Source of the DNA: Psammoneis japonica | Lineage: Eukaryota | Length of the DNA: 64,000 nt | Assembly (NCBI GenBank): GCA_008632985.1 | Contig: QPGO01000008.1 | Span: 1 to 64,000, forward strand | Direction: 5' to 3' | In this document: in pieces, positions 9,369 to 59,480 of the stretch | How the letters are laid out: each line of letters begins with the position of its first letter | Position numbering within the stretch: the stretch's first letter is position 1 | Position numbers and translations under genes: made by a program | The notes under the pieces: model-generated | What the model was told of the DNA's origin: nothing | The model's database searches: none | What the model saw: the letters and a program-made list of their open reading frames with translations, nothing else

Positions 9369-9369
9369 G

Positions 9370-16289: not shown

Positions 16290-16299
16290 ATCAGCATAT

Positions 16300-28864: not shown

Positions 28865-29076
28865 GCCGTACTCGCATGGTGCTATTGCGGCTGAAAAGTG
28901 ATGACAAACCCTCTTTAGACGTACGGAGCTTTTTCTCTAGGAGAGAGTGGAGCACAAGTAATGTCGCCGGTGGGACTTCACGAAATGACGAGGTGGGACT
29001 ACGACTGCACTGTTTGGCTCTACCTTTTTGTTTAACCAGTATTTTACAATCGACTTATAACTTTGTTCTTCTTTTC

Positions 29077-31526: not shown

Positions 31527-31899
31527 TCGGTGCAAAATACAATGGAAGGCAGCGTTGAATATTGGGCGAAGAAGCTGCAGTGCTTTCGTGATGGCAAAAG
31601 TACTGTAATGGGCTATGCTGGAGCGACCTCGGGCGATTGGCGATACAAAAAATGTGACATGCTGGAATTTTAAGCACATTGGTCACTGAGAAACATGTCT
31701 GAAAGGCATCACCACTAAATGTTTCAGGAACCAAAAACCCAATGTGACTTTGTTATCTGATTTCAGTGGTCACAGGTCATTAATTCGAGTCGTCAAACGA
31801 CAACAGTCTTTTCGACGCAATGACTTTCCATCGGTCAAATGAATCACGTTCCCCCACTGGCTCAGCAGCATCAGAGCAAAAAGTGAAGCACGGGGCGGG

Positions 31900-32548
31900 G
31901 GTCAAAACTGCTGGGCAGTGCATTGCCTGTGTCAGACTCATGTTGGTGTGCAAGCCACAGCCACAGCAGCAGCTTTCGTAACATTTCCAGTGCTGCGCAG
32001 TTCTCCAACAGGAAGACTTTCCATGACACCGTGGTTTTTGGGTGGGCAAAGCAACGCTCACAATTTTTCACTGCGCCAAAAGAAACAATGGCAAGCGGAG
32101 CATTGACAGTGCTTCAGGTTTGTTGCTCCACTGCAACCACTGTCCTCAAACAAACAGCGTTGTGCTGTGCTTCTGGTCTGCAGCACTGAGCTCTGACTGC
32201 CCTTGTTTTGTTGAGCCCATTGTTTTGCTTTTTGTCATCCATGATTTTAAAACATTTTTTCCTGTGGTGTTGATGACAAGCCAGAGTCTGCAACAACTCA
32301 GCCAGCAAGATTCTTGTGAGAAAAGCTCAGCCATCTTTCTGCTGCCTGAGAGCACCACACTTCAGCTGCTGCCCAACAATTTGGGCTCTTGCGCAACCCA
32401 ATTTTGCCAGAAAGCAGCACTCAAAATGTGGCCATGTGTTGTCAAAGCATTGGCTCATCAACCAGGCAGGGGCACATCTCTTTGTGCACTGTTGCAGCAG
32501 TGCCAGGTGCCACATGTTGGGCACCAAATGCTGTGGCTCTTAAGTTGA
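31900..32548 (+). pseudogene. Eroded host-like gene remnant resembling the C-terminus of diatom LRR/RNI-like proteins
   Basis: LLPNNLGS...KMWPCVVKAL...TSLCALLQQ resembles L..N..G....LWP.VL....S.LY.LL after Tyr->Cys correction. Confidence 0.35.
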
Positions 32549-35500
32549 GGTGAAAGCACCTCCTCTCTTGGCTTTTGGGGGGTTTCTTGGACAGACACTT
32601 TTTCCAGATGCTGGCGGTGGCAATCCATGTGACATTGGGTCTGCAAAATTTTGTGTGAAATCTCCAGCTGCAGCAAAGTCCCCAGGTGATGAACACATCA
32701 ACAATTGCCAACAGAAAAAGAAGCAATTTGGCAAAAGCACAAACTCGTCCATGGTTGAAGTGCATCATCTCTCACTCAGCCTGGCACATTCTTCAAACAT
32801 TGAAGAATGCACTTGGCACATTGTTGTTCCCACAAAAGCACCAAACAAAAAGTCTTGAGCTTTGCAAAACAGGGAGTGTGGGACAATTCTGTGGAAGAGC
32901 ACATGGAGAATTGTGTGCGCGAAACATGCACGTGCAAAACACACGATGGATGACAAAAAAACAAGTGTGTCTCCCGCCTGTGGCTGGACCATGTCAACAG
33001 CCAATTTGGTGCATTTCAACAATGCATGGAACAGCTCCATTCCAACAACAAAATTTGAGCACAGCCTGCATTCCAACATCTCAGAAAGCATGCTCCAAGT
33101 GCATCTTCAATGTTCTCACAACTGCTTGCCACACAAACCCTTTTGATGGTGCAGGGTAAGCTGGCAGACTGTGTGTGGTCAAGCAAAGTTTTCAAGAACT
33201 CCAAGCGCAAGTCCAGAATGTGGGGGGGGGCACTGCAATGCTCAGCTGCATGCCCTGGCCACAGAAAGCAGAGCAGAGCATGATGAAGTCACCCCGCAGT
33301 TGGCGGCATTGCCTGATGCTGCTGAACGGAGAGCACCAATGGAGCAAAACAATGTGTGCATCATGGGGCATTTTGCAGCAGTGCTGCAATGTGGTGGTGA
33401 GTGTGCCATGCATTGTGTCACAGAGAGGCATCATGATTTGAGCACAGCAGCAGGAGAAAGAAAATCCTGGGAGTTTGAGTTTGGACCTCAAGTGATGTGA
33501 AACTTGGCTGGTTTCATGAGCACTTGGAAAAACACAGATGTGGTTTCCAACAACATCTTCAAGAATCCTCAGCTGGCTTCTGTAGAACAGTGAGCTCAGA
33601 GTTGCTCTTCTTGCCATTGCACAAAGAACACAAAGCTTGGCCTTGTGAAACATGTTGGTGCCTTGAGTGCACAGTTGCTTCAGCTGCCTGCTGAGTGCAA
33701 GTCATCAACTCTTGCCCTCATTTTGTGAGCTGGGTCTGCTGCAGCAGCAGCAAAAGATGCTGAGTGCTGACTGCACATGAGAGTTGCCACATGGGCCTCA
33801 CAGGGCTTGGACACTTCAGGTTTTCCTCTGTGCACTTGACTGCACACATGTTTGAAAGCTGGTTTGTTGAGACAAGCAAACAGGACTCCCCCCCCCCCGT
33901 CAACTCCAGCTGTGGCTCCAATGGGGAAGCAACATGCAATGCCAGCAAACTTGCTGTTTGTGTGCATGTGCCAAATGCCTGCAGAGTTGTGCTGGCCACA
34001 GCTCACTTTTTGTTTGCAGCTGTGTTGCACAAATGGTGCACCTTCAGAGGGCTGGCTGTTGCATCAAAGAGTGCACGCCAAATGCCTGCTGACACCAGCT
34101 TTTTTCCTGGAGGTTGCAAAGTGGCCTGGATTGCTTGATTGAGGTGCTTGTCCTCCAGCACCACCCACCTCACATCTGAGCCCTGAGCCCTCCCACAGGC
34201 CTTGTAAGCCTGTGGGTTTTGGCCCACTTTGGCCAGCAATCACATTCTCCATGTCCCACAGCATTTGAGGTCTGCATGTTTGGCTTGTTTTGGTTGCTCT
34301 CACTGACACTTGTGCTTCACAACTTGTGCTCTTTTTCTGATTTTGAACTCCATTTTCACAGATGATGTGAGAGGAGAAATGCAACAAGAAGGAGGGCTGG
34401 AGAGAAGCTGCACACCCACCTGGCCACCCATGTCTCCTCTCGTGGTGATGGCTCTGCCCCCCATTTGAAGAGCACAACATCTCTCCTGCCAAGCCTGCTG
34501 ATCAAGCCATCCCCTGATGTCCCAGCTTCTCATCTTCATTGCACACACAAAGCTTTGAGACATTTGTCAAGTGGCAGTGCCCCCCAACATCTCTTTTCAA
34601 GCAAGACAAGGCTGGTTTGGTCAGGACCAGATCAAGTTGAAGAGTGCACCTGTCTGAAAACTGTGTCTCTGCTTCACAAAAAAGGGTTCTGCAGCCTTTG
34701 TCACTTTGTTCCTGGCACTCTCTGTCAAGCTGAAGCTCAAGGCAGTCATGCAAAAGCTTTGGCAGCTGGCTCAGAGCATGCAACTGAATTGCAAAGCTTG
34801 TTGGATTGCAGCTGGCACCAAAAGCACATCTGCCTTGATTGTGCCATGTGTCTGTCATTTTGCATGTTTTCAGGGCACATCCATTTGCTCACACACAGTG
34901 AGGCATGCAATGATGGCCCCACTGACCATCTCAAATGTGCCTGAAAAATTTTTGCACATCTTCCAGCATGCATTTCTTGAAGACCTTCCTGTTTCTCTCA
35001 TGTTGGTCTTGACATCAACAGCAAGGTTGCTTGTGTGATCACTTTTTGTCATTGTCAGCCAAGAGGCCTGTTCCAGCTCCAGGTGCTCCGCTTTTCATCA
35101 TGCTAGATTTTCTGTGCAGTTTTCAGCTCCAGACATTTTTGTCTCCACCCAGCAGAGCTCGCACTTTTTGGCTTCATGCAAACATTGATTGCTCCAATGA
35201 TGTGATGCATTCATGACATTGATGCTCATGTGCAACAACTGAGGTGCACAATGCGTCACAGGAAGAATCATGTCAGTTGGCATTCAATGTTTTTCTGGTG
35301 ATGCACAGAACAATGCTGACCCATGCGAACACGTGCGGTCCACCCAACACACACCAGCCATGATGCAGCACACCGCTGTCACAGCTCCACAACCCCCTCT
35401 TCACCCTTGCGGTTGCATGAAACCATCTGTTCCTTTCATTTCAAAGTCACGTCATTGTCGTCGCAATGCGGCTGCGGCTCTAAAGAGTTGCTGTTGTTGC

Positions 35501-35740
35501 GGACAACACCATCTCTTCGCATTCTCTCGTTTCGAATTCGGCAAGTCGCTCTGTCGTGTTTTTTTTTGTGCGTCACCGCACGCGTGCATTTTTCTGGTTG
35601 CTTGCTTCTCACATCTCGTTTTGTGGTTGTTTTGCACCAGGGCCTTCGGAATTTCTACAAAACTCAAGTGTTCGCCCGAGCATTCTCCGAGTGACAGTTT
35701 CTGCTGGAACAAACTTGTCTTGGTTTGTTTTCACTGTGAC

Positions 35741-35991
35741 GCTTGCTGTTTGCACTTTTCAGCATCTGGAACTGCCTCAGAGGCTGCCTCTGTTCATCCG
35801 CATCACTTTTGCGGTGACTGACGTTGGCCCCCTCTCTGGAGTGCATTTGTCGTGCAAGCAGGCACGCAGCTTGCTGTTTGATGCTTTTCAGCATCTGAAA
35901 CTGCCTTGGAGGCTGCCTCTGTTCATCCGCGCCACTTTCGCGGCAACTGGCGTTGGCCCCCTCTCTGGAGTGCATTTGTCGTACAAACAGG
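35741..35991. repeat. Two-copy ~128-bp tandem duplication inside the transposon
   Basis: gcttgctgtttg...cagcatctg.aactgcct..gaggctgcctctgttcatccgc... at 35741 and 35869. Confidence 0.9.
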
Positions 35992-36014
35992 AGTGCAAAA
36001 GCAGTGCATTTGCC

Positions 36015-36857
36015 ATGGACATGTTGGCCAAAGTAGCCTCCCAGCAGCGTCCCATTGGCGGCACTTCCCCTCAAGCAAGCGATGACTCTTCCAGCACGTT
36101 GAAGGTTTCCTTTTGTGTCCAGCGTTGCATCAAGGCACTCACGGAACATTGCCCACCGCAGGGTGAAGCCAAAACTTGGTGCACTGTGCCTCTCCAAGAT
36201 GCAGCTGATCCCCTTGAGTGCCCTCAAGGTCTTGTAGATTTGAGCATCTTGACCACAGAAGATTGTGGAACAAAGAAGACGAGCCCTCTCTTTCATGTTC
36301 TTCATCACAAGAATGGTTTGGATGGGTTCAACAGCGCCAAAACACGGAACATGTTCTGCAACACTGTTGTTGATTGGTTTTGTGAAAAATTTGACTCCAA
36401 GAATCAACCACAACTGAACCAACACATCAAGGACAAGAACCAGCACCTCTTGATGTTGGTTGTGGTGCCATCAGGAATGTTGATGAGGGATGCCATGAAG
36501 GACAAGCAAAACATTGCTGCTGTTTTGATGCACTGTGTCAAGACAAACATTGGCCTGCTTGTTGATTGCGTCCGTGTGACAGAGTCTCTGGTTGTGTCGG
36601 TTGGGACGGGCAATGAGAGTGAATCAATCACACCGTTGAGTTGAGGTGCATGTCCTTTTTTGATTGGACTTGCCCAAGCCATTTGCTGTGGTGTTGTCAA
36701 GAAGATGGATGCATGTCTTCATTGTCAGAAGACTTTGAAGTCTCACTGCATTGGAGTGATGGGTTTTGAGGACATCACGGACACCATGAGTGATCGTTCC
36801 GACCTGGCGGACGTCCGCAAGCACTGGGACTGGGATGATCTCATGATGAATGATTGA
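36015..36857 (+). pseudogene. Transposon cargo ORF, possibly GNAT acetyltransferase-like; one in-frame TGA at 36642
   Basis: LLVDCVRV...S*GACPFLIGLAQAI...LKSHCIGVMGFE; after Tyr restoration it resembles GNAT motifs A and B (..YY..MGF). Confidence 0.35.
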
Positions 36858-37344
36858 TGCAACACTGTTGCCCTGTGTGCAAAGGAGAGGATTGCTCCAA
36901 TGAGCTCTGCAATTGTTTTGGCATTGCCTCATTCCAGCGCTGAGTGTCAGAACGTCGCAACAGAGATCCGCAAGAATGAAGACTGTTGGGAGGAACCGCT
37001 TGTTGAAGGAGGATGCATTGCTGATCATTCGTGCAATGCCAAGCACTGATTCCACTTGGCATCTTTGGTCAACATTCACAACCTAGAAACGTGTGATGAT
37101 GAAAAGTCGACCAAAGATTTAAAGACGCGTCTTTTGGCTGCCTTTTGGCGAGGCCGTGTTTCAAAGTTGGTGGCAAATTAAGTCTCCAAAGGGAGTGAAG
37201 AACAATTTTGAAATGTTGGCTTTGAAGGGGTTGCACGTCAAGTTCTGCTGTGAAACAAGACATCCTGTTCTATCTGCAAAACAGCGCTGGGGTTCAATCT
37301 GCAACCATTGCTCTGTTCCAAACTAAATCGCTCAGAGGAAGCAG

Positions 37345-39650
37345 GTGGACGAAAAGCTGCGTCGAAAGCCACGCATCAGCCACAAGAAGTTGAAGAAAAT
37401 TGTGGATCACAGCGACGATTGTGTTTTTCATGACGAGTGTTGCAAAAGGGAGAAGCTTGAACAGCCAGATGATGACATGCAGGAAGATCCCTGCATTCCC
37501 GAACTTCCCACCAACTCACAATGCAAAGTGCTCACAAGTTGCACGAGTGGCTGCCGGAGGATTTTCTCATTTGGGCCATGCGACCCCAATGACAGACTGC
37601 CATCCGAGGCCTTGTTTGACATCATTGCAGGTTGGCGGCACAACCATGTGTTGCGGATCACCTCTGATGGTGAATGCAGAGGCACCGCTTGTCCGCTGGA
37701 CCAGCGGTGCAAGCCTTTCAAGCTGTGATGACACTCCATCACCGAAGACAAACACATGTTTGAAGTTCACTTCCCCGCCGGACCAAGCAGGAAGGACTGT
37801 TTCAAAGAGCCGCTTGCTCACCTTGCTGATTGATGCAAGGCAGCTCCTGGACTTGCATGGTGCAAGTTTTGCAGAAGGATCCGTTGCCATCGTCACATGC
37901 ATCATGCTGGTGCCTGTGATGCAAGGTTGAAGGAAGAGGTGAAGGAGGAGGAAGAGGAAGAGGGGAAGGAGGGCAAGGAAGAGACGGATGACCTGCAAAA
38001 GGCCGAGGCTGGCACTGCAAGGTTGCAACTGCGAGACAAAACCCAGGAGGAGGAAGATGGGGCCATGGATCAATCGCCTGAGGAAGAGGAGGAAGAGGAG
38101 GAAGATGACGGTGTGCAAGACGAAATCCAGGAGGAGCAAGATCCAGAGGAAACTGAGGATGAGGAGGAAGATGAATGCAAGGAAGAAGTTTCTGCAGCTG
38201 CAGAAGAGAAGAGGGAGAAAGCCAAGGCTGCAAAAGAGAAGAGAGAGAAAGCCCCGGCTGCAGAAGAGAAGCAGGAGACAGCGGGGGAGGCTTTTTGCAG
38301 ACGCTTGCATCAGCTTTTGAAAGACATCACTGGAGTGCATGAGGATGAGGATCTCATTGGCCTTTGCAGCTCTGTCCCAAAACCAAGGCCAAAAGGAGAC
38401 ACTTCATGGCATCGGTTGACCAAAGAGCAGCAACACCAACAAGAAAGGGATCGACTCAAGCGTGAGTGCGAAGACGCTCAAGTGATGTTGCAGGTTAAAA
38501 AACTCATTTGGATTGATCCAAGTAAATGGAACAGCAGGTGTCAGCATCCTGGCAATTCCGAAGGAGCCGTTCCTCACTTGTTTGGTTGCTTTGAAGGGAA
38601 AAACAAGGATGTCATGTTGTGGGAACAATGGTTTGACGTGCGATGCAATGAAATGAATGGCCATCCCATGAACATGTGTGCGGACCTCATTTTACGTGCC
38701 AAACACAAACCAAACAATCCCCAGCAACTCAATCGAAAATGCAGGGATGAGATTAAGAACAAGGTGGAATTGATTTGCAACCCACCGCAGATTGCCAAAC
38801 TGAAGAGATTGACTGAAGCAGAGATTCAAAAACTTCCACCTGTTGGGTGGGGAGCTGATTTCATTGGCCACAGCTTGGAGGGGAACCGTCCCATGTGTGC
38901 AACCCTGGATTGGGCTGAGTGCAAGTTTGAGTTTCGGTTTCCAGATGTGTGGAAAGATTTGAAAGAATTGAAGCCATTGGATGGTTGTTGCTCCTTGCCG
39001 GAAGGAAACGTGTTGATGCCATCGAACAGCAACTTGCCGATGAGCGGTCCACCTGTGAAATTCCTGCAAGGACAAAACGACACTTGCGTTTTTTCCTCCT
39101 TGGCCAGTGTTCTTGATTGTGCTGGTGACATGGAAATGAGAGACTGCACTGCTTCTCACATTCAAACATCTGCCAACTGTGCTGACACTGACAACAAGTG
39201 CATGTTGTTTGCAAAGAACATGTTGAATGGTCGTTTGAAGGGAAAATTCCCGCCTGAGAACTCAAACATGAAGTTTTGCGGCAGTGTGGATCAAACGATT
39301 TCCCTTGCAGCAGGTGGTGAATTTGACATGACGACCTGCAATGATGACTTCACAACTTTGTGCTGTCTTGTGAACAACCACACTGCATTGCCTTGCACCG
39401 TGGATGGATCTTTGATTCCAACCACCCTTTTGCATTGCCAGCAAAGGACATTGAGTGCTTGAATTGGTGTCTTGGGAACAAGGAACATGAGATGAAATGC
39501 ACGGTGAAAAAGCGTCTGCAACAAGTGTTCATGGTGCACCAGTTCAAACTTCCTGGGGAGGTGCAGCAGAAGTTGCACGCAAAAAGGAAAGCTTTTGTGT
39601 TGGACGGCATGATGCAAAATGACACAATCACAGTGTTTGTTCATTGTCCC
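37345..39650 (+). pseudogene. Transposon cargo ORF: acidic Glu-rich region plus papain-fold/C39-like cysteine protease domain
   Basis: QGQNDTCVFSSLASVL (Gln, Cys), then HCIALHRGWIFDSN (His, Asp) after a frameshift near 39375. Confidence 0.5.
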
Positions 39651-39659
39651 ATTGCCACT

Positions 39660-42566
39660 TCATTTGTGTGAATCATCACTGTCGCTGTCCCCTGCCGTGC
39701 TCTCATCATCCTCCGCAGTGTCTTCCATGTCGTCATTCTCTCCCCCCCACTCACCAGCTTTGATGTCTTGTTCCTCCACCTCATCCAAACAGTCCTCAAA
39801 ATGATCCATTGCCCCCCGCTGTTGGATGGCATCCAGAATTCCTTCATGCGTTTCATCACTCAAATGACGTGGATGAAGAAGTGAAGCCTCGTTCCTGTTG
39901 CACGTGCTTGGCAGTTCCAGATTGGCCAATGGTTCATTGAGCTCAATGTCGGCAATTGCAATTTGCTTGAGCAACACTCTTGTCTTGCATTCCTCAGCAT
40001 CACCGGGAGCGCACCATCCTCTGGCCCGTGGAACAGGGTTAAGATGCATTCCCTTGCAAACCCATTCACTGGCCTTGGCAGTTGTGGGCATGTCAAACTC
40101 TTTCCACACCTCGTCCTCCTGTGATTTGTGGAGGAGTTCATCCCATTGCAGCAGATGGAAGCCCTCCTCAGATTCACAAGGCAATGCGGCACAGCTGTTT
40201 GGAACAATTTCCTTGGCCATTTCCTCAGTCAGGAAGTCCAACACAGATTTGTGAACCAGCTGCACCTCGTCGGCGTCACTCTCATCTGTTTGAATCACCT
40301 GACACACTTGCCAATCATTTGTCCCCTCAAAGATGGGCCACAGTTTGCAAGCTCGGTTGCCACCTGCATGTCGTGGCTGCTCTGTTGGCTTGACATTTTT
40401 AACCCAAGGCCGTTTCAGCTGATCCAGGCAGGCTTCACAAGCACAAGGAATTCTTCGCATTGCAACCCAGCCAATGGGGAAAAGAGGTTCAAATCAGAAA
40501 TGGCACAAGGCTCCAATGCCACAATGGCATGTGTGCACTTGCACCAACCCAATCAACTTGACTTTGATTGAAGAGCCAAGAACTTTGTCAGCTTCCTGCA
40601 GATGACACACCCTTTGCATTGACTTTCAAAGGGATTCCCTCTTGGCATGTTTTCTGTCACCAACTGTGCCGAAAGCATTCTTGTTCTTTGTGACCATTTT
40701 TGCAACATTCCTTTGCACAACTGTGTGCGGCTGCAACACTGTTGTCATCCATGACCAAAGCTTCAGGTCTAATTTTCCCATCCCTGTCATTGACTCCTGC
40801 AACAGTTGAGTGATTTGATGTGGGCTCCAATGCCATCAACCTCTCCTTTGCCATGTCCAGGTGCTCCAATGGCACGGTCAAACACAATGTTGCATTTGTG
40901 TGCAAAGACAGACAACAAGTGCAGTGCCAAAGCACATCGGCATTGTTTGGCACAACCATCAGTGTGATCCCAAATCACAAGCCACGCCTTGTGCAGGTTG
41001 TGGTTTTTTAACCAGGTGACAAACTTTTCCAAGTGAGCATTGGTGGTGGTGGCATCTTGTTTGGAAGAGTCAGAGAGATGCGCATGATGTGTTTTCTGAA
41101 GCTCATTGTCAACCATTGCATCGCAAACTCTTCCTTTGATTGACAATGTTTGGTTGTTGCCACAATGGTCACCCTGAACTTGGTTGTTGAACTCTGCCTT
41201 CTGATGCTCGGAGCAGTCATGAGACATGAACAGGCTGTTGGGTGTTGACTCAAATGCTTTGTGGCGCATTTCCATGCAATGATTTTTCCCAAGAATGACC
41301 GCGTGGGGAAGGTGGCAGTGGAGCTTCTTTAAACTTGGAATGCAGTGCTCTTTTGTAAAGACACTGACTGGTTTTCGGAACCTTGTCAACAAGGTCCCAC
41401 GTTTCACCTTTGCATCCTTGTTCCCATCTGGATCTGCCTCACAAACAGGACATGCTTCCATGCACACACCATGCTTGGAACAACTTTTTTACAGTTGAGC
41501 AACGTTGAAACAAAACTTGGGGTGCACTGGGACTTTCATTCTGTTCCAACAATGGAGTTGGATGGGATGGGATGATCCTGACCATTGACATTGCCGCAAA
41601 TGATGGTTGCAACTGCATCTCGGGCTTTGGGATGAAGGTGATGGCCGTTGGGGCCAAACGCCTCCTCTTGATGGACACGCATTGTTTCCTCCAATTTGCC
41701 AAGGGCACTGTCACAGTTCTCCAAGTTCTCAGGATCCTCACTTGCAAGCTTCAACCGATTTTGCTCCACCTCCATCTCTTTTAAAAGCTTCCTTCAAAAC
41801 CTGTTCAATGCATCTTGTAGAAAATTGGCGTTGGTGCAATTGCTGCATTGACACATGCTGCGTTGACTTGCTTTCATTTTTCGACACTGCTTGGGAATCA
41901 AAAATCAAAACATCGTGTCGCTGATGAGGGTCTTGCCATTGGCATCACGTGCATGTTTGAATCCGCCAACAGACACAGGCTTCAACATGTCATTGTGCAG
42001 CTCACGTGTGGACACATTGCGCAACCATTTGTTCACTCGTTTCTTGTTTCCATCTTCATCTTTGCTGAGAATCATGTCTCATGTGTTGGGAGACTGCACT
42101 GTGTTGGGATGATTTGACAACCAGTGCACAAATGCCTTTCGGATCTCAGGGGAAACTTTGTGAGGATGCCGACGGGGTTGCACTGAAGACCACATGACAT
42201 CGTCAGTGTTTGAAATCAATGCCTCTCTGGCAATCTTTCCCTTCTTCATTTGGCGATGAACAGTGCTCTGTTTCAGGCCAAGTGCCTTGGCATGGTCATG
42301 GGAAGACAACTTTTCCTCTTCATCAGATTTTTCTGGTGAACCGGAGATTCCAGTTGCCAGAGCACGGACAAACGATTTTTTGTCGTCGGCGAGGTGTTGA
42401 CCATTGCTGGCATCATTGGCACGTGCCCACATTTTGCCCAACTGCTTGGCAATTTGCAAGGCTGCAGAATTTGTTTTGGCAATGTCAAATTGCAAGCCTG
42501 AAGAAATGGGGCTAACTCGGGAAAATGCAAAGCATGCACAAACGCACAGATTTGTTGTTCTTGAGT
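39660..42566 (-). pseudogene. Sola-like transposase, fragmented; the N-terminal part may continue beyond Copia-2 at ~49748-50370
   Basis: DCSE..NQVQGDH, DHTDGCAKQCR, GHGKGEVDGIG and RRIPCACEAC correspond to D(F/Y)SE / DG..QY / HGKG..DG motifs. Confidence 0.72.
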
Positions 42567-42571
42567 GGTGG

Positions 42572-42765
42572 TGTCAGCCCATCTGCACCTGTCGCATGAT
42601 GGACAGACTGGATGCGGATGATGGCTGGACCATTTGGATGGACAAGCAGATCTCTCTGAGATCTGCTTCTCACTTTCTCATCTGCTGGCACTCATGTCAT
42701 CACAGTCCTGGTGCTCCAGGGAGTCTTTCACACCTCTGTCACTGTCGACCTTCGGCATTCTGTCA
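42572..42765 (+). repeat. Copia-2 5' LTR (194 bp)
   Basis: Direct repeat of 49550-49742. Confidence 0.95.
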
Positions 42766-42777
42766 GGTTGTGGCCAC
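42766..42777 (+). promoter_or_regulatory. Putative PBS GGTTGTGGCC (cf. copia half-tRNA-iMet PBS GGTTATGGGCC)
   Basis: Directly follows the 5' LTR; TA appears as TG. Confidence 0.65.
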
Positions 42778-42943
42778 ACGCTGTGCCACAGACCTCTGCG
42801 CCAAGCTTTCTGTCTCGATCCATTTGTTTTGTGAGCCGATCAAGCGAGCCTCATCATCTGATCCGACAACTTTTTGTCTCGCTTTCCCGGCATTTTTCAC
42901 GACCGTAGAAACACGCCAGATTTCCACGCGTGCATGACCAAAA

Positions 42944-48900: not shown

Positions 48901-49372
48901 TCAACTCGTTGCTTTCTTGGATGCTGCTTGTGGCAATGACCTCCGCAACCGTCGTTCTACGACTGGCCATGCTTGCATGTCAGCTGGTGCTGCCACATCT
49001 TTTCGATGCAAGACCCAATCGGTGACCGCTGCGAGCTCTACGGAAGCTGAATTTTGTGCTGCTGGAACTGCTGCCAAGCATGTCCTGCACCTTCGTCACG
49101 TTCCACAGGACCTGGGCTTCCCTCAGACGGAGCCAACCCCGTCACACATTGACAACGAATCGGCGATCAAGATCATCAATCACTCGATCCTGACTGAGCG
49201 ATCCCGTCACATTGAGATTCAGTTTTTTGCGATCCAAGAATGGAAGGAAGCGGGCAAGATTGTCACGAGACATGTTCCTGGCATTGTCAACCCCAGCGAT
49301 GACCTCACCAAGGCCCTTGGCTGGGTGCCACACGCTCGCCACGCTTGACGCATGATGGGACACTGCTGTTGA
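42944..49372 (+). pseudogene. gag-pol: Copia-2 gag-pol (CLVCSGEHLFDDC zinc knuckle, PR, IN, PDZ-like domain, RT, RH); in-frame TGA at 46694, 47762, 48632 and 49346
   Basis: Collinear ORFs 42944..43534, 43778..44992, 45014..46696, 46709..47764, 47927..48634 and 48650..49348. Confidence 0.92.
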
Positions 49373-49540
49373 CATTTTTTTCCACGGTGGCCTCCCTGCT
49401 GCGCATTGCCCTCTTGTTTGATGGCGTGTTGGGCATGGACACTTCTTGCGTCCTGTGTCTGGTCTCTCTGTTTTTTCCTCACATCATCCCTGTTCTTTGG
49501 TTTGATCTGCACTGTTCTCTGTGTTGAGATGTCACAGATC

Positions 49541-49549
49541 AGGGGAGGG
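49541..49549 (+). promoter_or_regulatory. Polypurine tract AGGGGAGGG of Copia-2
   Basis: Directly precedes the 3' LTR. Confidence 0.85.
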
Positions 49550-49742
49550 TGTCAGCCCATCTACACCTGTGCATGATGGACAGACTGGATGCGGATGATG
49601 GCTGGACCATTTAGACAGACGAGCAGATCTCTCTGAGATCTGCTTCTCACTTTCTCATCTGCCAGCACTCGTGTCATCACAGTCCTGGCACTTTGGGGAG
49701 TCTTTCATGCCTCTGTCACTGTCGACCTTCGGCATTCTGTCA
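49550..49742 (+). repeat. Copia-2 3' LTR (193 bp)
   Basis: Direct repeat of 42572-42765. Confidence 0.95.
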
Positions 49743-52283
49743 GGTGGTGCAAGACAACACTCCTTCTCTCACTTTGACCGCTGCACAACAAAGTGCCTGC
49801 TGGGGATCTTTGTGGGTTGCTTTGAATGCATGAGGATTAAAAGTGGGGCAACCTTGGGAGGCGGTGAGGTTGACAGCAGTTCAGTTGGCCGAAGTGACAG
49901 GAGAGGGAGTGACGGCGGCATTGTCAGAGTTGGGGTTGGAGGGAGTGGCAGCCACTCCTGCAGTGTGCATTTGGGAGGGGCTTGGCTGTCTTGGCAAGGA
50001 CAACCCTGGACAATGAGTGGGGTGTTCCTTGGAGGTGTTTGGGTTGAAAGCCTCCAGGTCAGTGGGAGCAACGGAGGGAGTGACGGAGGCAGCAGGGCTC
50101 GGGTTGTTCGGGCTGGAGGGAGTGGCTGCAGCTCCTTCAGCTGCAGCAACGACATGGGCAGAGACCGTGGAGTGTGTTTCAAGTTCACGATGAGGCTTCT
50201 TGTTTTTGCTGTTGCCAGTCCCTGACTTGTGTTGACGGCCAACTCCATTTTGCTTCTTCCTCTTGTTGCCCACGATGCACTGGAAATTTGATTGAAAGTG
50301 TGCATCGAGAGGGCTGGTGAATGAGACGGATGGCAAGTCGAGAGAACACACATTTTTTTGGCATGCTCAATCAAATTAACTGTGTTGTGTCTGCAGAAAT
50401 GAGGTGTGTTCGGACGTCAGTTGAGTTGAAGAAGACCAAACACACGAGCTCCGAAAAATGAAAAAGTGAGTGATCACGAGCATTTTTCATGTGGAATGGG
50501 ACACCAGCCGAAAATCACATTTGGCACAATCAGCAAGTCCTTCATTTTTGATCATTTCGAAAATCGAAAGGCAAGTGCACACCCGAAAACACATGTAAAG
50601 TGTGCACTTGCCCTTCGATTTGGCAAAAAACAGATTTTGAAAAAGTCATTTGCGCTGAACCTAAAAATGGGCAAATGATGGGAATCGAACCCACGCGGAG
50701 CACCTGGAGCTGGAACAGGCCAAGAGGACAATCCTCAAGGCAAGCCACTTTAAGCTGGAAGCACATCTGCATCTTCCCCTGGCTGTGTGAGCACAGGCAC
50801 TACTCCTGCTTGCACAGCAGCACAGTTGTCAGCTTTACAAAGCTGGGTGAAATTGAGCAAGGAAGCCCCCTGCCTTGCTGGAGAAGCTTGCTGCCCACCT
50901 CTCCTCATGGCAGCTTGTGTGCATTTCAACAACTTGGCCCAACAAATTTTCAACAGAAGCCACTTTTCTCAAAGATGCCAAAAAAGTAAAGCTGCACCTT
51001 TGCCATGGTTGCCAGGAGCACAGTTGCTCTTCAATGAGCATGCCAATGCTCTCATGTTCGACACTCGTTTCCTCATTTTGCCACCCCAACAAAATTTCAG
51101 ACATTTGATTGCGCTGAATTTCTTGGCTCTCAGAAATGCCTTTGCAGTGTTCCTGGATGCAGACCCAGAAGCTGAGGTCTTGTCACCTTGTTGCATGAAG
51201 GTGATTCAGCCATCAAGAACGCCTCCAGTTCCCCACCACATCATCGGCACTTTGAAGTGTGGGTGAAGTGACAGCCATTGCCACAGCCCAAATGAGGGCG
51301 CCGCTGACATCACTGTGTCAAATTGGCAGCAACCCATTGTCATGACACATTTGCTGCTCTTCAGTCAAGAAGCACAAACAGCTCTGCACAAAGTTTCCCT
51401 GCCCTTCCAGAACACCAAACAACAGCCTTCATCACTCACTTTTCATTGACCATCCTCCTGAACCCACCCAGTTTTGTCACATGCTGGGGGCCCCACAGAG
51501 AGCATCTTTGAAAAAACCTCTGCACATGCAGAGCTCATGAGAGCCATTGTTTGGTGTTTTTGGCACTTCAGGAAGAGCTGCACAGCACACAGCATCTGTT
51601 CCACCCAAGTGGGCTTTTTTTCAAGTGCTTTGGATTTTGCAGTCTTTGCAGGGGAGAGCATCCAAGTGGCAACAATGCTGGGCTGGTGATGATGGCCAAG
51701 TTGAGAAGTTTGGTGCAAAAGATGTGCCACCAAAATGAAAAGAGGGTTGATTGCACCCACCCCATTTTTCATTGATGCCCCCCACTCCTCTCCAGATTCC
51801 AGGTGGTGCAGTGTTTGGGGGGCCCACAATGGCAAAAGCGTGCTTCTCTGTCCTGCCTCTTTGATGGGTGCTCAAGGAGTGCTTTGTGCAAACATCAAAG
51901 AAGGTGCATTTGCGCACTTTTCCAAAGGTGTTTGTCTTTGCACAACAGCACTGAGTCTCTGCTGAGTTGATGTGCAACCAAAGATTTTTGCCGTGCCTTT
52001 GCCAGGCTCATGTGACACAATGTGCCTCCCCCCAACTGCAAGAGTCTTGTTGTTGGGCCACCACATCTGTGAATTCAAGCTGTGGGAACAGCAAAAAAGA
52101 AGAGCACTTTCTTTGCTGTTGCCACTTGGCACTGCCTCTTGTCTCTCTTTGGCCATTGTCAAAATTCAACAAATCCTTGGTTTCTTTGCTGTGTTGCAGA
52201 TGGCTGATCAGATTTGGCAAAAATCACCTGTGATTTTGGTGAACTGCAATCCCAGCTTCTGGGTCATTTGGGTGGGTTGGACA

Positions 52284-53530
52284 CCAAAGTTGCAAACTCA
52301 TGACAGTTGACAAAAGTTGACAAACTCGTCAAAGTTGACAAAGCTGACAAAGTTGGCAAACTCACCAAAGTTGAAAAAGTTGCCAAAGTTGACAAACTGA
52401 CCAAAGTTGAAAAAGGTGACAAAGTTGACAAACTTGCCAATTTTGCCAAAGTTGCAAACTTGTCAAAGTTGACTGCACGGGTCTGTGGGAAATCATGTTT
52501 TTGAGCAAAAAACAGAGAATCTCTGTGAGTTTTGACTGTTTGCAATGCCAACAGCGCAGCCGCACGCACTTTTTCTGCATGATGAGCTCGTGCGTTTTTG
52601 ACACAACTTTGACACAACTTTTGACACAAATCAAAGTTGTGCTGCAGTTTTGAAAATGCACATCTGGGCATTTTTAGAATTCCTGCAAGACTTCCAGTGA
52701 AAAAATCTGCACAAAAAAACACAACCCGGGTGTGCATTTTGAAAGCTGTGCCACACATTTTGAAAAATGCACATGCAGGTTCTTTTGCATGCAGAAGTCT
52801 GGTGCATTCCCACATGACACAAAAGTTGGGACATTTTCAATTGTGCACATCCGGGTCTTTGTTTCTCACAGTTTTTTGAATCAAAAGTCGTGTCTAAAAA
52901 TGTCTTTTCTACGAGGTGGTGTCGGCAACAAATTTGTCTTGTCTGACAGATTTTGTGCTGGCAGGCACAATTCACATCAATTTTGACATGCAGGTGGCAA
53001 AAATGGCAATTTCCCACAGACCCTGCAACCAAAGTTGACAAAAGCTGCCAAAGTTGGCAAACTCACCAAAGTTTAAAACAAGTTGCCAAAGTTGACAAAC
53101 TTGCCAATTTTGCCAAAGTTGAAAAAGTTGCCAAAGTTGACAAACTCATCAAAGTTGACAAAGCTGACAAAGTTGGCAAACTCACCAAAGTTGACAAAGT
53201 TAACTCACTCACCAAAATTGACAAAGTTGCAAACTCATCAAAGTTGACAAAGTTGCCAAAAAGCTGACAAAGTCGCCAAAGTTGACAAGCTCACCAGAGT
53301 CAACAAAGTTGCGAACTCATCAAAGTTGAAAAAGTCTCCAAAGTCACCAAAGTTGACAAAGTTGGAAAACTCACCAAAGTCAGCAAAGTTGCCAAAAAGA
53401 AAAAGTTGACAAACTTTTCAAAGTTGACAAAGCTGACAAAGTTGGCAAACTCTCCAAAGTTGACAAAGTCACCAAAGCTGACAAAGTCACCCCAAAGATG
53501 CCAAAAGCTGCAAACTCATCAAAGTTGCAA
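52284..53530. repeat. Degenerate 9-bp minisatellite (CAAAGTTGA/CAAACTCAC-type), split by a MITE
   Basis: Arrays at ~52284-52473 and ~53029-53530; KVDKLTKVDK translation periodicity. Confidence 0.88.
52479..53023. mobile_element. ~545-bp non-autonomous TIR element (MITE-like)
   Basis: 15-bp perfect TIR GGGTCTGTGGGAAAT (52479-52493) / ATTTCCCACAGACCC (53009-53023) interrupts the 9-bp array. Confidence 0.75.
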
Positions 53531-56500
53531 AGACGTGCTCCAGCCCCAGGTGAAGCACAAAACGGCAATCCATTTGAGCGCAAATGTTGCGCACTTTGTG
53601 CAAGTCCTTGTGGGATGTGCATCACAAAATTCCTCAGCAGACTTGGCGCTGATTGTGCGACAGCACTCAAGGCACAGCAAAGCCTTTTGCAGGCAGAACA
53701 CATGCTGAAAACATTGCAAAAACATTTTGTGTCAATGTCCGCACATTTGATGTGAGCATCTTCAACTTTTTTGCCAAAAACATCCACTGTGTTGCAACTT
53801 GCTTGTTGCAATGAAAACATTGACAGCATGAAAAACAGTGGTGTTGCAACACTGACACGTGTCTTGTTGGTGTTGCATGACACAAATCTGCACTTTTGGC
53901 AACAAAAGATCTTTTGCAAGTCAGAGACCATGCAAAAATCACACAAATGTTGTTTTTGCACATGACTTGGTTTGCGCATGGCTGGAGCATGTTCAAAGAA
54001 GTCAGCAAAGTTCTTGACAAAGCTGGCTGCAATTTTTTAATTTGGAAATGGGTGCATTCAGCGAACATCAAGTTTGAGTTTAAAATTTCATTGCTTGGGC
54101 ATTGATGTTTGACATCAATGGCAGGATGTCAAACAAAGTTGATGATGCAATTGTCATTTCAGACAATTTGTCAATGAAACAGTGGCTGCAAAACAAAAGT
54201 CAATTTTGGCAGCATGTTGATGACACTGTGGCATTGAATGAAATGGCTTGAAATGACAAGACAATGGCAGAATGCAAAGGAAATCCCATCATCACACTTT
54301 GCAAGACACAAAAAGGTGATCATTGTCACATCAATGAAGAGAAGACCATGCCAAAGATGCCACAAGAGAAAACAAAAGAAAGGCAACATCTGGTCATGAG
54401 GTGAGCCCAAGGTTGCTGTCAGCATTGGAGCAGACAGGATCAAACGGAGGGCACAAAGCATCTGGTGGGGCCACAATCTGAGATGCACACAAGCATGACA
54501 ACATTTCTGTTGCCATGGTTGGTTGGCATGAAGACTGCCAATGTTGGTGCCCATGAATTCATGGCACAATCTTGCAAGTTGACTTGCAAGTTGAATTTTC
54601 CAAAACAATCTTGTCACCTGCTGCTGGTGGCCTCAAATGTTGCTTGGTTGCTGGGTGGTGCGGGTGACATCTGAATGGTCAACAACATTGCCTTGGAAAG
54701 TTCTTTCTGTGCACTCTCATTTTGTGCCATTTGTCTGCTCACCAAATGTGTTGTTTGTGCTTTGTCAGAGTTTGAACGGTGAACACATCATTTCATGTGG
54801 TCGATTTTTGCTTTGATGGATCCAGGCATTTTTTTTAACTTTGTCGTCATCACAAAAGCACGCCCATTTGCTGGGAGCCTTGAGCTTCACCCCGCCACTC
54901 TCTGCGTCCTTTGGCAAATCTTTTTGTGCTGTTCATTTGGACTTGTGACAAGCTTGACATGTTTTTGGAGGTCTTGGTTGGCTCATGATCACATGTTGTT
55001 TTTTGGCAACAACAATTTCTTGAAAGTGTGCGCCGTGGGAACAAAACATTGTGATGGAGCCTTGGAGACACCTGACACCTGTGATGTTGGTGTTTGTCAG
55101 ACAATCTTGTCACAGTCAAAAGACAATGCTCCTGTGAGCACATTGTGATTGGCTGAGTTTTGGACTTGTTTTGACAAAAATTGCGCGCCTCATGAGCAAT
55201 TGATTTGTGTCCAGTTCATGTGTGCAGGTGGTGTCTGGTCCATGTGACCCTTTCTTCCTGCTTTGCAACCACACTTTCTTCATTGTCTAACACATGACAT
55301 CACCTGTGCCATTTTGGAAGATCTGGGCAGTGTGCTGACAGGTTGAAGCTTTGCAATGGGCAAAATGGAAAGGTGGAGGCTTGTGCTGCGCCAGGCTCCT
55401 CACCCGATTTGTGGATGCACTGCACTGCCGGCAAAGTGCGCACCTTTGCAAATGATGACTTGCTGATCTTGCTGATCTCAGGTGGAGACAAAATGTCTCT
55501 GGCAGATTAGAAAAAAACTGGAACAGAAGGCAAGCAGTGATTGAGAAGTTGCACATTGTGTGTTCTCTTTCAGCCCAGTTCATTGTTCTTCTTGACCTGT
55601 GTGCAGGTGACTTTGCACCGGCCGGCGCTGGAGGATGATGCAAGCGAAACAGTGGTGTTTGACACCACAGTGCAACTCCATTGAATTCCAGTTGAAGTCA
55701 ATCTGAAGCAACCCGAAGCTTTCAAATCCTTTCTGTTGTGACTTGATTTGCTCTTTCATGTCTTGACTGATTTCTTTGGATGGAGTTGAGGAATGAAGAG
55801 CATTGCCAATGTGCTTGGAATCAGCAAATACTTTGCTCTGGAGCAGAGCTTGGCGCAAAAGGCAAGAGATCCATCATTTGTGATTTTTGACTTGTTTCAT
55901 CATTTTTGGCGTTGTCTGATGAAAAGTTGGACAATCCATTTAAATGACTCACAGCATTTTGCTGTTTTTCAGAGGTGTGATTGCACAGCTCTTGGCACTC
56001 CAGTTTTCTTTAGAGCAAGATTGTTGCATCACATGTCCTTTGTGCAGCTCTTTCACCATGTAAACCAAGCTGAGTGCAAACACTGCATGGCATTGTGAAC
56101 GGAAATCCAAGCAACTGTTGCACGCAGGAGATGCAGCAGACAGACAAGGAGGGAGAGGAGGGCCAAAAGCATGGGAGCCCAGATGACAAAAGGAGCGCAA
56201 CAAGTTCCTGGCCTGAGCTCCATGACTGCGCCCAATTGTTGAACAGCAAGAATCAAATTTGAAAAAATTGGCATGCAAAAAGTGGCAGTGTCATTGTTCT
56301 TTGTGCATTGCATGCAATGGGCAGTGACATTCAAGTGCAATTCTGCATTGCATTCATTGATGTCATGAAATGGGCAATTTGAAAAATTTGGCATTCAAAG
56401 AGGAGAAGTAAAAAACAAACACAATGATGTGCTGGCTGGCATGATTGGCCTCAGGCAAATGCAGAAAAATGAATCTTGGGTGTGCAACATGATGTTGCTG

Positions 56501-59480
56501 TGCTTTGTTGTCGTGCTTTGTTTGTCAGGCATTTGAAGCAAGATTCTGAAAGAGATGTGCCTCCCATTTTCAAAAACCAAATGGTGACATCATTGGCAAA
56601 GTTTCAAGAGTGGCGGCGTTGGCGTTGTTCAAGGCCAAAATGTGGAAAGCAGTTTTCATGACAATCTGGTGCATTCATGTGCTGTGCTTGCTGTTTGTGC
56701 ATTCATGTGCTTGTTGTTTTTTTGGAAGTGCAACACTTGCTGTCCATTTGTTGGATGCTTTGTCATCCAGATCGACATCATCCAGGACAGCATTTGATGT
56801 TGACGGATTTGCCCCCACTGCTCAAAACTGTGCAAATGGGAGCTTGGCATGGCACCAATCCATGCTCCATTTGGCAATGGCCCACCGTTTTTCAAGGTGT
56901 GTGTGTGAAAAGCTGCTTGCAATGCAATCCGATGCATTTGTGTGATTGCGCATTGTCATTTGTGTGCTCTCAATGGTGCCGACAGAACAGCGCTCATTCT
57001 CAGCCACTTGGTGTGGTGCTGGCAGAACAACGAGAAATTCCATGGGACCCGGTGCATTCGTGTGATGGTGCCAGTGGAACAACACCCACCCTCAATTGCC
57101 CATTGTGGTGCAGTCAGAATGACACTCACTCCAAATTTGTTTTGAATGTTTCATCATGTGCAGCATGTCGACATCACCCTGGGATGGCATTTGACGTCAA
57201 CCGATGCACCCCAAGTGGTCAACACAGTGTGAATCAGAGAGTTGAAAAGCACCCTGTTCTTTTGCAATTGCCCGATCATGTGAGTGCAGAGTGCCATCTT
57301 GATGTCCTCTCATGATTGCAATCTGGCAAGTGTGGTTCATGTGTTGTGCACTTGTTGTGTTTCTGGCAGAATGCTGCTCACTCTCATTGCCTTGACTGCT
57401 TCATCATCAAGGACAACAAGCAGCGGCCAAGGAGCTTGGTGGCACAAATGTGCAGGCAGCTGAGCGGCAATGTTCATTGGCAAACAGCACATGATGACAA
57501 CAGCAAAATTGACCAGCCAGAATGAACAGCTGTCAGATTAGAGACAGGATGTCATTTGAACATCAGAACAAGGTTGGCTTTAAAAAAGCAAAGTGGAGTT
57601 TGCATGTGATGTGAGTTAATTTGTTGCATGGTGAGAAGAGGAGTGAATGGAAAGCAACACATCACACGGTGAAAAGCGACCAAGTGTCACACTTGAAATG
57701 TCAGGAACATTGTCCGCATGGACACTGCATTTGAAATTTCTTGCACAACATGCCAAAAACATTTTTGCACATTGGAACCAAGATTTCCAGCATGGCGTGC
57801 AAGAATGTTTAAATTAAAATCAAAAATTTGTTGGCACGTCGGGCAAGGAGAATGCCGTGCGCGCGTTTGCGTGTGATGTCAGATTGTTGCCCCACTGGAC
57901 AAGCACTGAGGAAAAAAGTGGAAGAGGTTGCAAGGAAACAGCTCTGTTCAAAGGCAAAGTTCCTTGCAAAGGCAGATGTGTTGAGCAGTGGAAAAGTGTC
58001 ATGGCCAATGTGGAAGAACATGGCTGGTGGCAAATTTGGCCAGGAAGACTGGGCAGGGATGTGGGAGCAAAGGCTGGGCAAAGAGGCATGTCCTGAGCAC
58101 CATCAATGCAAAAAGGAACACAACATCACACAGATGACAATGAAAAATGAGCTGAGTGGCAAGTGTTGCAGCCTGATGCTTTTCCAAACAGGGGTTGAGA
58201 ACAATGATGCCAACACCACGTCTGTTTTTTTGTAAAAAGCTGTGATTGCAGAAGAGCCATCTCCAGGGAATTGCTTGAGGAAAACAAGGGTGGCAGAGAC
58301 ACATCCAGGACAGAGGCAAAACCCCAAAAAGGGCAGAAGGAAGAGAATGTGGGCTGTGCCCATTGAAGAAAGATTCGTGCTGACTTGGAAGGACAAGACT
58401 GTGAAGACCATTGTGGATGAAAAAAGGAGCAACAAGGAAGCACATGCCAGGTTCTAGAACAATGCAGCAAAATTCTGAAAAAGCACTGCAATGTGGAGAA
58501 AATGGCTGTGCCTCAAAAATGAATCAGATGACAAAAGCAGCCAGCTCTGTGAGTTGATGCCTGATTTTTAGCATGGTCTGCCCCCCTGATGCCCGCGTTG
58601 CCACACACAAAGTGTGTTGGCTCTGCAAAAACAACAAAGCCTGGAGCTCCAGCCAACTGTGAGGTTGAATTTTGCAAGGGGGGGGGGTGGACACTCCTGT
58701 TGCAATGGAATGAAATGAACTGGACATTCAGATTGGGTCAGCAACCTTGCCAAACCACGGCATGTGATGCTCTGCTGAAGTTGTGATGCACGGCCCACCC
58801 ATCCCAAGGGAGGGCATTTCAATGGCCCCAACAAGTGACCAAACCGCTGTTGTTCTCACTCACTTCCTCAACAACTTTCCCTCTGTTTTCCAATCTTGAG
58901 TTTTTTGGCTTGACATTTTCCCCGACTTCGTTGGCTTTTTGGCGCACTCTTCCTCATTGTCGTTGTTGTGTGGGCGCAGTTGGCTTTTCATGCACGCACG
59001 CCAGCATCTCACAGTTGGCTGATCCGGACCCCAAAAAGCTTGTGCAGGAGGGCCAATGAGCAAATTTCAATTTTGTTTTTGCAGGTTTGTCAAGGAGCAC
59101 CATCTTGCACTTTGTTGCCCATCATCATTCGTGTGTCACTCTCAGCAGACTGCATGGATGAGAACAAGGAAGTGGGGTGAAGAGATTCCAAATCACAAGA
59201 CGCTCATTCAACTTTGAACAACATCTCGAATGCCTTGCAAGACTAGGCAGGGTGACATGCGGTGCCGATCACATCCTTGGCGGGAGAAAAGCAGTGCGTA
59301 GCGAGGCTCGAGTGCATGATGGAGGTAGCTACCAGGCGATGTGATTCCGGAGGACCACCAAGGGGCCCAGCGCGCTGCAAACAGCATCACAAGCTCACGT
59401 AATATTCACATCAACAAACTATACTAGTTTCGATAAAAACAATTGCACTACTACTACTATTTCTACTACTAAATACGTCA

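What the first reader, a model, noticed from the sequence alone, without database searches (positions are those of the whole stretch)
31790..59240. Nested age series suggests TpA is lost faster than CpG
By eye, the youngest layers (Copia-2, and Copia-1 in the other domain) keep many CpG yet have lost most TpA. The Sola-like element is intermediate, and the oldest flanks (32-35 kb, 51-59 kb) lack both and are dominated by TG/CA. Two processes seem to converge on TpG/CpA, with the adenine one acting first.
Basis: partly seen in the sequence, partly recalled or inferred. Interest (0 to 1): 0.7.

Follow-up and report, generated by a model that had tools for sequence, protein, structure and literature searches.

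The report
TpA erodes faster than CpG
In this diatom's transposons, TA steps in the DNA are rewritten to TG or CA about 10 to 20 times faster than CG steps early on, by a mutation process so far reported only in one preprint on an unrelated alga.

Summary
Confirmed, but the window's layers measure it poorly. TpA is near its floor in every layer (O/E 0.03-0.15, genes 0.58) while CpG grades 0.93, 0.68, 0.47, 0.15-0.25; equal depletion is rejected in all five layers. Comparing copies gives rates. TpA loss exceeds CpG loss in 46 of 46 transposon copies: Copia-1 66-77% against 6-11%; the window's Copia-2 89% against 18%; its host element 86% against 44%. Loss arose after insertion, on both strands, and CpG is not being refilled. 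A relic in the right flank has near-identical, unhit relatives elsewhere. Twelve of these lost 94 of 1139 TpA against 9 of 1164 CpG, unevenly (0-65%); one shows a gradient from a neighbouring erased domain. The data fit two processes acting together on the same silenced DNA, with TpA 10-20 times faster at first; 'acting first' in strict sequence is not shown. The host element was partly eroded before it spread, and the flanks sit near equilibrium. The spectrum matches TpA hypermutation reported in Bigelowiella (preprint); the enzyme is unknown. This scan already noted the process, the faster rate and the context bias on other contigs of this genome.

The parts
31782..59243 (.). TpA-erased domain between gene-rich DNA; last genic-density TA at 31781, first again at 59244
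31790..35060 (.). Left flank: old, nearly unique DNA; CpG O/E 0.15, TpA 0.03, both close to the estimated mutation floor
   Evidence: only short 67-77% matches elsewhere in G000
35065..50721 (.). DNA transposon with 27-bp terminal inverted repeats and a 4-bp AAGA duplication (35061-35064, 50722-50725); host of Copia-2; window copy lost 86% of TpA-class and 44% of CpG-class sites
39660..42570 (-). Broken transposase of the host element (approximate limits, by eye); 40790-41488 is 36-41% identical to three unnamed proteins of 1086-1216 aa; no Pfam family
42572..49742 (+). Copia-2 LTR retrotransposon: LTRs 42572-42765 and 49550-49742, GGTGG duplication, GAG-pre-integrase, retroviral SH3 and RVT_2 matches, several stops; lost 89% of TpA-class and 18% of CpG-class sites; 1 of 22 conserved tyrosines left
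50726..59243 (.). Right flank: mosaic of repeat relics; CpG O/E 0.25, TpA 0.04
52285..53487 (.). 9-bp tandem arrays (52285-52473, 53029-53487) inside the right flank
54648..56040 (+). Relic (54648-55388, 55836-56040) of a 1.88-kb TIR family whose youngest copies elsewhere keep TpA and CpG; against copy L144, 40 of 41 TpA and 32 of 38 CpG are now TG/CA (sites with other changes set aside)
1668..9368 (-). Copia-1 (approximate limits, rearranged terminal repeats, N gap 5509-5722) in a second erased domain (1-13093); lost 75% of TpA-class and 8% of CpG-class sites in 2100-5300
13200..31780 (.). Gene-rich baseline (peptidase M64, DUF1415); CpG O/E about 1.0, TpA about 0.58

Best explanation
Two DNA-level transition processes act together on silenced repeat domains of a diatom genome, and both end in TpG/CpA. 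SHOWN: each transposon copy loses TpA (to TG or CA) after insertion, independently and on both strands. The early rate per dinucleotide is 10-20 times the CpG rate and roughly 130-240 times the rate at other sites. TpA loss depends on context (fast when the A is followed by pyrimidines, slowest in TAAA and TAGA); CpG loss is nearly context-flat and tracks neutral divergence at about 10-30 times. TpA therefore reaches a plateau of resistant sites early while CpG keeps falling, which produces the layered look. Onset is uneven between copies of the same age, and in one copy it grades inward from a neighbouring erased domain. INFERRED: a copy becomes a target once it acquires silent, probably CG-methylated chromatin. 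CpG decays by 5-methylcytosine deamination. TpA is hit by an enzyme that damages the A of 5'-TA-3' in that chromatin, most simply an adenine deaminase (A to inosine, read as G). The effect is genome defence: tyrosine codons (TAY) are destroyed first.
For: 46 of 46 copies in four groups lose more TpA than CpG; median rate ratios are 12.9, 11.4, 6.5 and 4.4. TG-or-CA direction agrees between copies only about half the time (0.31-0.75, one pair 0.94). In the 12 of 21 loci with both LTRs and a matching target duplication, LTR pairs differ at 17 of 1213 other sites but show 61 TG/CA, 41 TA-involving and 16 CG-involving differences, with 55 CG/CG and 7 TA/TA kept. Against a real unhit copy (L144), 12 young copies lost 94 of 1139 TpA and 9 of 1164 CpG (p 3e-20; without L152, 30 of 1040 and 4 of 1061, p 2e-6). 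L152 lost 64 of 99 TpA (30 TG, 34 CA) and 5 of 103 CpG, with 4 of 928 other sites changed; gradient 25/28, 22/30, 17/41 from the erased side (p 5e-5). Tyrosines conserved in 25 outside homologues are kept at 12 of 457 positions in 21 copies (211 Cys, 179 His); arginines at 691 of 971. Context. Diatom repeats are CG-methylated islands (PMC9998398, passages). G000 has 27 C5-methyltransferase matches and an ADAT2-like gene (label by eye).
Against: No enzyme is identified. The deaminases found look like an ordinary housekeeping set. TACG, the natural TadA anticodon context (recalled), is not favoured in the Copia sets (0.70-0.85 relative, against 1.5-2.4 for TACC/TACT), though it is 1.85 in the TIR element. 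Methylation was not measured. A four-context constant-rate model under-predicts TpA survival in older copies (about 0.04 predicted, 0.12 seen for Copia-2 group B). Within Copia-2 group A, TpA loss does not track age (rho -0.40, n.s.) and in group B it is negative (rho -0.77), which also fits bursts. Local TpA and CpG loss within copies correlate in only 1 of 4 groups. Two young copies beside or inside erased domains are nearly untouched (L148, L149). The gradient rests on one copy. The mixture model assumes a star phylogeny, which is only approximate.
Confidence: 0.6

Rival explanations
1. Same kinetics, different chemistry: TpA carries a stable modified base (methylated A, or a modified T) laid down in silenced DNA, which mutates passively, as 5mC does at CpG.
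For: TpA is palindromic like CpG. Loss shows no strand runs within a copy (33 runs, 32.9 expected), so it is not one processive pass. G000 has many C5-methyltransferase-like genes of untested specificity.
Against: A rate 10-20 times that of CpG decay is high for passive decay (inference). The strong 3' context bias contrasts with the flat CpG decay. No TET/JBP match was found, but that search's control was silent, so it is no evidence either way.
Confidence: 0.2
2. Strict sequence: TpA is removed in one or a few RIP-like bursts, for example at sexual stages, and CpG then decays slowly as a clock.
For: Extreme overdispersion among same-age copies (0-65%, chi2 481 on 11 df). CpG loss tracks neutral distance in Copia-2 group A (rho 0.92) while TpA loss does not. 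In Bigelowiella only 11 of 15 lines were hit (preprint).
Against: Intermediate copies exist (2, 3, 8, 14 and 64 sites lost). The most-hit young copy already has raised CpG loss. Pooled over 46 copies, TpA loss also rises with neutral distance (rho 0.50). The plateau is enriched in resistant contexts.
Confidence: 0.15
3. The difference is an artefact of starting composition, or was inherited from a TpA-poor master element, or comes from reverse transcription or RNA editing.
For: TpA starts lower than CpG in this genome (0.58 against 1.00). The host TIR element's progenitor was indeed already eroded (0.29).
Against: Copia progenitors had normal TpA (0.66, 0.72). LTR pairs and sister copies went in opposite directions. 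DNA transposons are hit equally and on both strands.
Confidence: 0.03
4. CpG only seems to last because it is refilled by a second step (TG or CA to CG).
For: A few TG-to-CG and CA-to-CG differences occur (0.3-3% in the model; 2 of 110 CA in L152).
Against: CG appears at only 7 of 1059, 14 of 3092, 17 of 2648 and 7 of 1136 observations at TpA-class sites, i.e. at background level.
Confidence: 0.02

Closest known systems
TpA-restricted hypermutation of integrated NCLDV and virophage DNA in Bigelowiella natans (Mettrop et al., bioRxiv 10.64898/2026.01.13.699255; parts 1-3 of 5 read, plus a term search; supplements closed)
   Same: A:T to G:C transitions confined to TpA, both strands, in DNA, localised to silent foreign sequence, uneven in onset; TpA-poor coding sequences there include transposon domains; enzyme unknown, ADAT2 proposed.
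   Different: Here a diatom (stramenopile), with LTR and DNA transposons driven to near saturation, alongside CpG decay. The preprint's main text has 0 occurrences of 'diatom', 'CpG' or 'context', so the rate ratio, the 3' context bias and the gradient are not in that text; supplements I could not see may bear on context. It measures a per-generation rate; I could not.
Repeat-induced point mutation (RIP) of ascomycete fungi (search listing and abstracts; otherwise recalled)
   Same: Repeat-directed, dinucleotide-specific transitions on both strands that kill transposon genes.
   Different: Opposite direction: RIP makes TpA from CpA/TpG. Here CA-to-TA and TG-to-TA are at most 0.24%. Near-identical 1.88-kb repeats are mostly untouched, so duplication alone does not trigger it.
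CpG decay of methylated repeats; DNMT5-dependent CG methylation of diatom transposons (PMC9998398, 12 of 17 passages seen)
   Same: Accounts for the CG to TG/CA component: both strands, nearly context-flat, tracks age.
   Different: Does not touch TpA; here it is the slower process.

Membership tests
Bigelowiella-type TpA hypermutation | A:T to G:C transitions confined to TpA | tested here: met
   64 of 75 differences between young copy L134 (= L152) and L132 are TA to TG/CA
Bigelowiella-type TpA hypermutation | Both strands, at DNA level | tested here: met
   30 TG / 34 CA in a DNA transposon; 295 / 319 in Copia-1; LTR pairs
Bigelowiella-type TpA hypermutation | Not constitutive (only some lines are hit) | tested here: inconclusive
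   Same-age copies differ 0-65%; this is variation between loci, not between lines
Bigelowiella-type TpA hypermutation | Targets integrated viral DNA | not tested
   Targets seen here are transposons, satellites and unidentified relics
Bigelowiella-type TpA hypermutation | About 1000-fold raised rate per generation; shared enzyme | not testable with these tools
   Only relative rates (about 130-240 times other sites per dinucleotide); enzyme unknown in both organisms
Fungal RIP | C to T at CpA/TpG, producing TpA | tested here: not met
   CA-to-TA 0.0003-0.0019, TG-to-TA 0.0008-0.0024
Fungal RIP | Triggered by duplication; premeiotic; needs RID | tested here: inconclusive
   9 of 12 near-identical young copies lost 0-3 TpA; timing and RID/DNMT4 orthology not tested
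5mC-driven CpG decay | CG to TG/CA on both strands in repeats, rising with age | tested here: met
   (rho 0.61 pooled)
5mC-driven CpG decay | The CpG sites are methylated | not testable with these tools
   C5-methyltransferase genes are present; DNMT5 orthology not tested
Ty1/Copia (for Copia-2) | TG...CA LTRs, 5-bp target duplication, integrase-region domains before reverse transcriptase | tested here: met
Sola (for the host element) | Terminal inverted repeats and 4-bp, AT-rich (AWWT) target duplication | tested here: inconclusive
   27-bp TIR and 4-bp AAGA; length fits, sequence is not AWWT (PMC3627910, passages)
Sola (for the host element) | Sola-type transposase | tested here: inconclusive
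   No Pfam hit; three unnamed homologues; the TDGCAKQ / GHGKxEVDG motifs resemble Sola2 from recall only

The most novel reading that the evidence does not exclude
Some diatoms run a genome defence that mirrors RIP: a chromatin-guided enzyme that turns A:T into G:C at TpA, spreads from silenced domains into newly arrived transposons, and destroys their tyrosine codons an order of magnitude faster than methyl-CpG decay. It would be the same system as in Bigelowiella, hence old within SAR, and would imply a natural adenine deaminase acting on chromosomal double-stranded DNA.
Probability: 0.35. Interest if true: 0.9.

Novelty: new variant of a known kind. Interest (0 to 1): 0.66.

Why it matters
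A programmed A-to-G mutator of chromosomal DNA is known only from one preprint, with no enzyme. This genome gives its long-term footprint and measurable properties: a rate about 10-20 times CpG decay, a sequence preference, locus-by-locus onset, and one family holding unhit, partly hit and fully erased copies. These are criteria that a candidate enzyme must meet. It also means that identity-based or LTR-based dating of transposons in such genomes overstates ages unless TA/TG/CA/CG sites are set aside, and that hit elements are hard to annotate because they lose their tyrosines.

Tried and rejected
Fitting two rates from layer composition: rejected; the log-ratio runs 19, 5.0, 3.2, 1.6-1.9 because TpA saturates and the flanks sit near a rough equilibrium (CG 30 seen / 34 expected and 110 / 86; TA 6 / 3 and 27 / 9). 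CpG refilling, an inherited TpA-poor master and RNA-level editing: rejected (see rivals). Left-flank copies: none close enough to polarise. Reads: only assembled contigs were available, 11 differing places in 20 kb, uninformative on ongoing mutation; no RNA holder listed. TET/JBP search found nothing but its control was silent, so no conclusion. Five C5-methyltransferases were scanned and gave only the catalytic family. A review on engineered deaminases gave no TadA context statement in the passages seen. Among 117 outside Copia homologues none is tyrosine-depleted (2.4-5.0%), but only long intact proteins were searched, so this says nothing about other diatoms. Rows dropped: for the young-family count I used 12 of 30 loci, leaving out the reference L144 and 17 copies of other subfamilies (3-18% diverged at other sites); for LTR sums 12 of 21 loci; for the rate model 46 copies, leaving out the more distant or partial hits.

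Full report
SETTING. The window is G000:C7:1-64000 of a 91-Mb genome. The eIF2-beta gene at 59484-60365 has its named best relatives in diatoms. Gene-rich DNA alternates with two repeat domains, 1-13093 and 31782-59243.

OBSERVATION. O/E CpG / TpA: genes 1.00 / 0.58; Copia-1 0.93 / 0.145; Copia-2 0.68 / 0.085; host TIR element 0.47 / 0.052; left flank 0.15 / 0.028; right flank 0.25 / 0.043. Equal proportional loss is rejected in each layer (p from 0.009 to 6e-26). The nesting is confirmed by LTRs and a GGTGG duplication, 27-bp inverted repeats with AAGA on both sides, and a contig joining across the Copia. Contigs of run X1 reproduce most of the unique left flank exactly.

WHY THE LAYERS ARE A POOR CLOCK. 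TpA is near saturation everywhere, so the log-ratio of losses falls from 19 to 1.6 across layers. A rough steady-state estimate puts the flanks at or near the floor for both dinucleotides. The host element's progenitor was already eroded (site-class O/E 0.29 TpA and 0.62 CpG, against 0.72 / 0.82 for Copia-2 and 0.66 / 1.02 for Copia-1). Its window copy is about as old as Copia-2 by neutral distance (0.019 against 0.015). The right flank is a mosaic of relics.

RATES FROM COPIES. I fetched copies from the same genome. In 12 close Copia-2 copies, 5580 of 7246 pairwise differences are transitions in TA/TG/CA/CG columns. A site-class mixture gives loss of TpA / CpG per copy: Copia-1 (9 copies) 66-77% / 6-11%; Copia-2 group A (12) 71-90% / 11-24%; group B (9) 83-92% / 24-37%; host element (16) 41-92% / 21-67%. 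TpA loss is the larger in 46 of 46. Median rate ratios are 12.9, 11.4, 6.5 and 4.4. Relative to other sites, the TpA rate per dinucleotide is 214, 133, 56 and 136 times, and the CpG rate 16, 12, 10 and 32 times. The model assumes a star phylogeny. Direction (TG or CA) agrees between copies about half the time, so most loss is independent; one pair (L031/L034, 0.94) is a later duplicate or an allele.

THREE CHECKS THAT DO NOT USE THE MODEL. (1) LTR pairs: in the 12 of 21 loci with matching duplications, 17 of 1213 other sites differ, against 61 TG/CA, 41 TA-involving and 16 CG-involving differences; 55 CG/CG and 7 TA/TA pairs remain. (2) Proteins: tyrosines conserved in 25 outside homologues survive at 12 of 457 positions in 21 copies, becoming Cys (211) or His (179); arginines survive at 691 of 971. 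(3) A young family: the relic at 54648-56040 belongs to a 1.88-kb TIR family with near-identical copies that keep normal TpA and CpG. Against real copy L144, the 12 youngest lost 0, 0, 0, 0, 2, 1, 8, 14, 64, 1, 1, 3 TpA and 0, 0, 0, 0, 0, 1, 1, 0, 5, 2, 0, 0 CpG (94 of 1139 against 9 of 1164). In L152 the rate ratio is 21 with only 4 of 928 other sites changed. The window's relic lost 40 of 41 TpA and 32 of 38 CpG against that reference, which is 16% diverged at other sites.

FASTER, NOT CLEARLY FIRST. L152 has more CpG loss than its 11 sisters (5 of 103 against 4 of 1061, p 0.0005), so both processes appear to start on the same copy. A concurrent model using Copia-1's rates predicts TpA survival of 0.13 at Copia-2's CpG loss (0.11 seen) but about 0.04 for group B (0.12 seen). 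Against simple constant rates: onset is very uneven (chi2 481, 11 df), TpA loss does not track age within Copia-2 (rho -0.40 and -0.77), and local TpA and CpG loss correlate in only 1 of 4 groups. Pooled, both rise with neutral distance (rho 0.50 and 0.61). Bursts are therefore not excluded.

POSITION AND CONTEXT. In L152 loss falls from 25 of 28 to 22 of 30 to 17 of 41 moving away from an erased neighbour (p 5e-5), with no strand runs (z 0.03). This is one copy; L148 and L149 lie in or beside erased DNA and are nearly intact, presumably newer than the last episode (inference). At the window's own edges the TA-free zone reaches about 300-400 bases beyond the CG-poor core. Per-strand rates in Copia-1 are TAT 1.18, TAC 0.81, TAG 0.37 and TAA 0.19, against about 0.05 for CpG in all contexts. 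TAAA and TAGA are slowest, and TACG is not favoured in the Copia sets. Survivors in the right flank are 19 of 27 YTAR, against 111 of 755 in genes. CG appears at TpA-class sites at background level only, so CpG is not refilled.

MECHANISM. Shown: DNA-level, post-insertion, two-strand, context-biased TA-to-TG/CA change, much faster than CpG decay. Inferred: targeting by silent, CG-methylated chromatin (diatom transposons are CG-methylated islands; PMC9998398, passages), and an enzymatic lesion at the A. G000 holds 9 deaminase-family matches that read as an ordinary set, including an ADAT2-like gene (labels by eye), and 27 C5-methyltransferase matches. Neither singles out an enzyme. A modified-base route remains open.

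WHAT IS KNOWN. The spectrum equals that measured in Bigelowiella natans viral insertions (bioRxiv 10.64898/2026.01.13.699255; parts 1-3 of 5 read; found by my search). That text does not mention diatoms, CpG or context; its supplements were closed. Searches listed no report of TpA erasure in diatoms; I saw listings and abstract starts only, and the library lacks most subscription papers. It is not RIP (opposite direction). Earlier notes of this scan report the process, the faster TpA rate and the TAY bias on other contigs of the same genome; they are unchecked notes, and my numbers are my own. What this window adds is a rate fit across four copy groups and a single family spanning unhit to fully erased copies.

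VERDICT. Observation confirmed; interpretation partly supported; a new variant of a kind known from one preprint. Interest 0.66.

Noticed in passing
G000; L194-L198: 27 matches to the C5 DNA methyltransferase family, five with long open frames; two look DNMT2-like and two have acidic N-terminal extensions (labels by eye and recall); broken copies cluster on C297 and C10.
   Followed up: partly
L189 (G000:C79:88506-88676): A 491-aa open frame with a deaminase domain followed by what looks by eye like a 2OG-Fe(II) oxygenase domain; not scanned.
   Followed up: no
L185/L188 (G000:C41) and L186/L191 (C317): Tandem dCMP-deaminase-like domains, present on two contigs.
   Followed up: no
L143-L156 (e.g. 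G000:C53:120249-122126): Recently active 1.88-kb TIR element with internally repeated termini and no open frame over 108 aa; seven full-length copies are more than 99% identical.
   Followed up: partly
window 31781-32158 and 58900-59244: The TA-free zone extends about 300-400 bases beyond the CG-poor core at both edges of the domain.
   Followed up: partly
window 5-1003 and 9397-12316: 23-bp satellite (127 copies in the larger array), almost free of TA, on both sides of Copia-1.
   Followed up: no
L031 and L034: Two Copia-2 copies share 94% of their TG/CA directions: alleles, or a duplication made after mutation.
   Followed up: no
L053 (G000:C196) and L039 (C479): Copies with unusually low TpA loss for their CpG loss (41% against 37%; 71% against 21%), showing that the two processes can part.
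   Followed up: no
L165 (G000:C84:240308-241671): An unhit copy of an older subfamily sits between two fully erased flanks (TpA O/E 0.00).
   Followed up: no
window 35741-35991: A 129-bp tandem duplication inside the host element whose two units differ mostly at TA/TG/CA/CG sites.
   Followed up: partly
window 13584-16289: A 901-aa open frame with no Pfam match at the edge of the gene-rich block.
   Followed up: no
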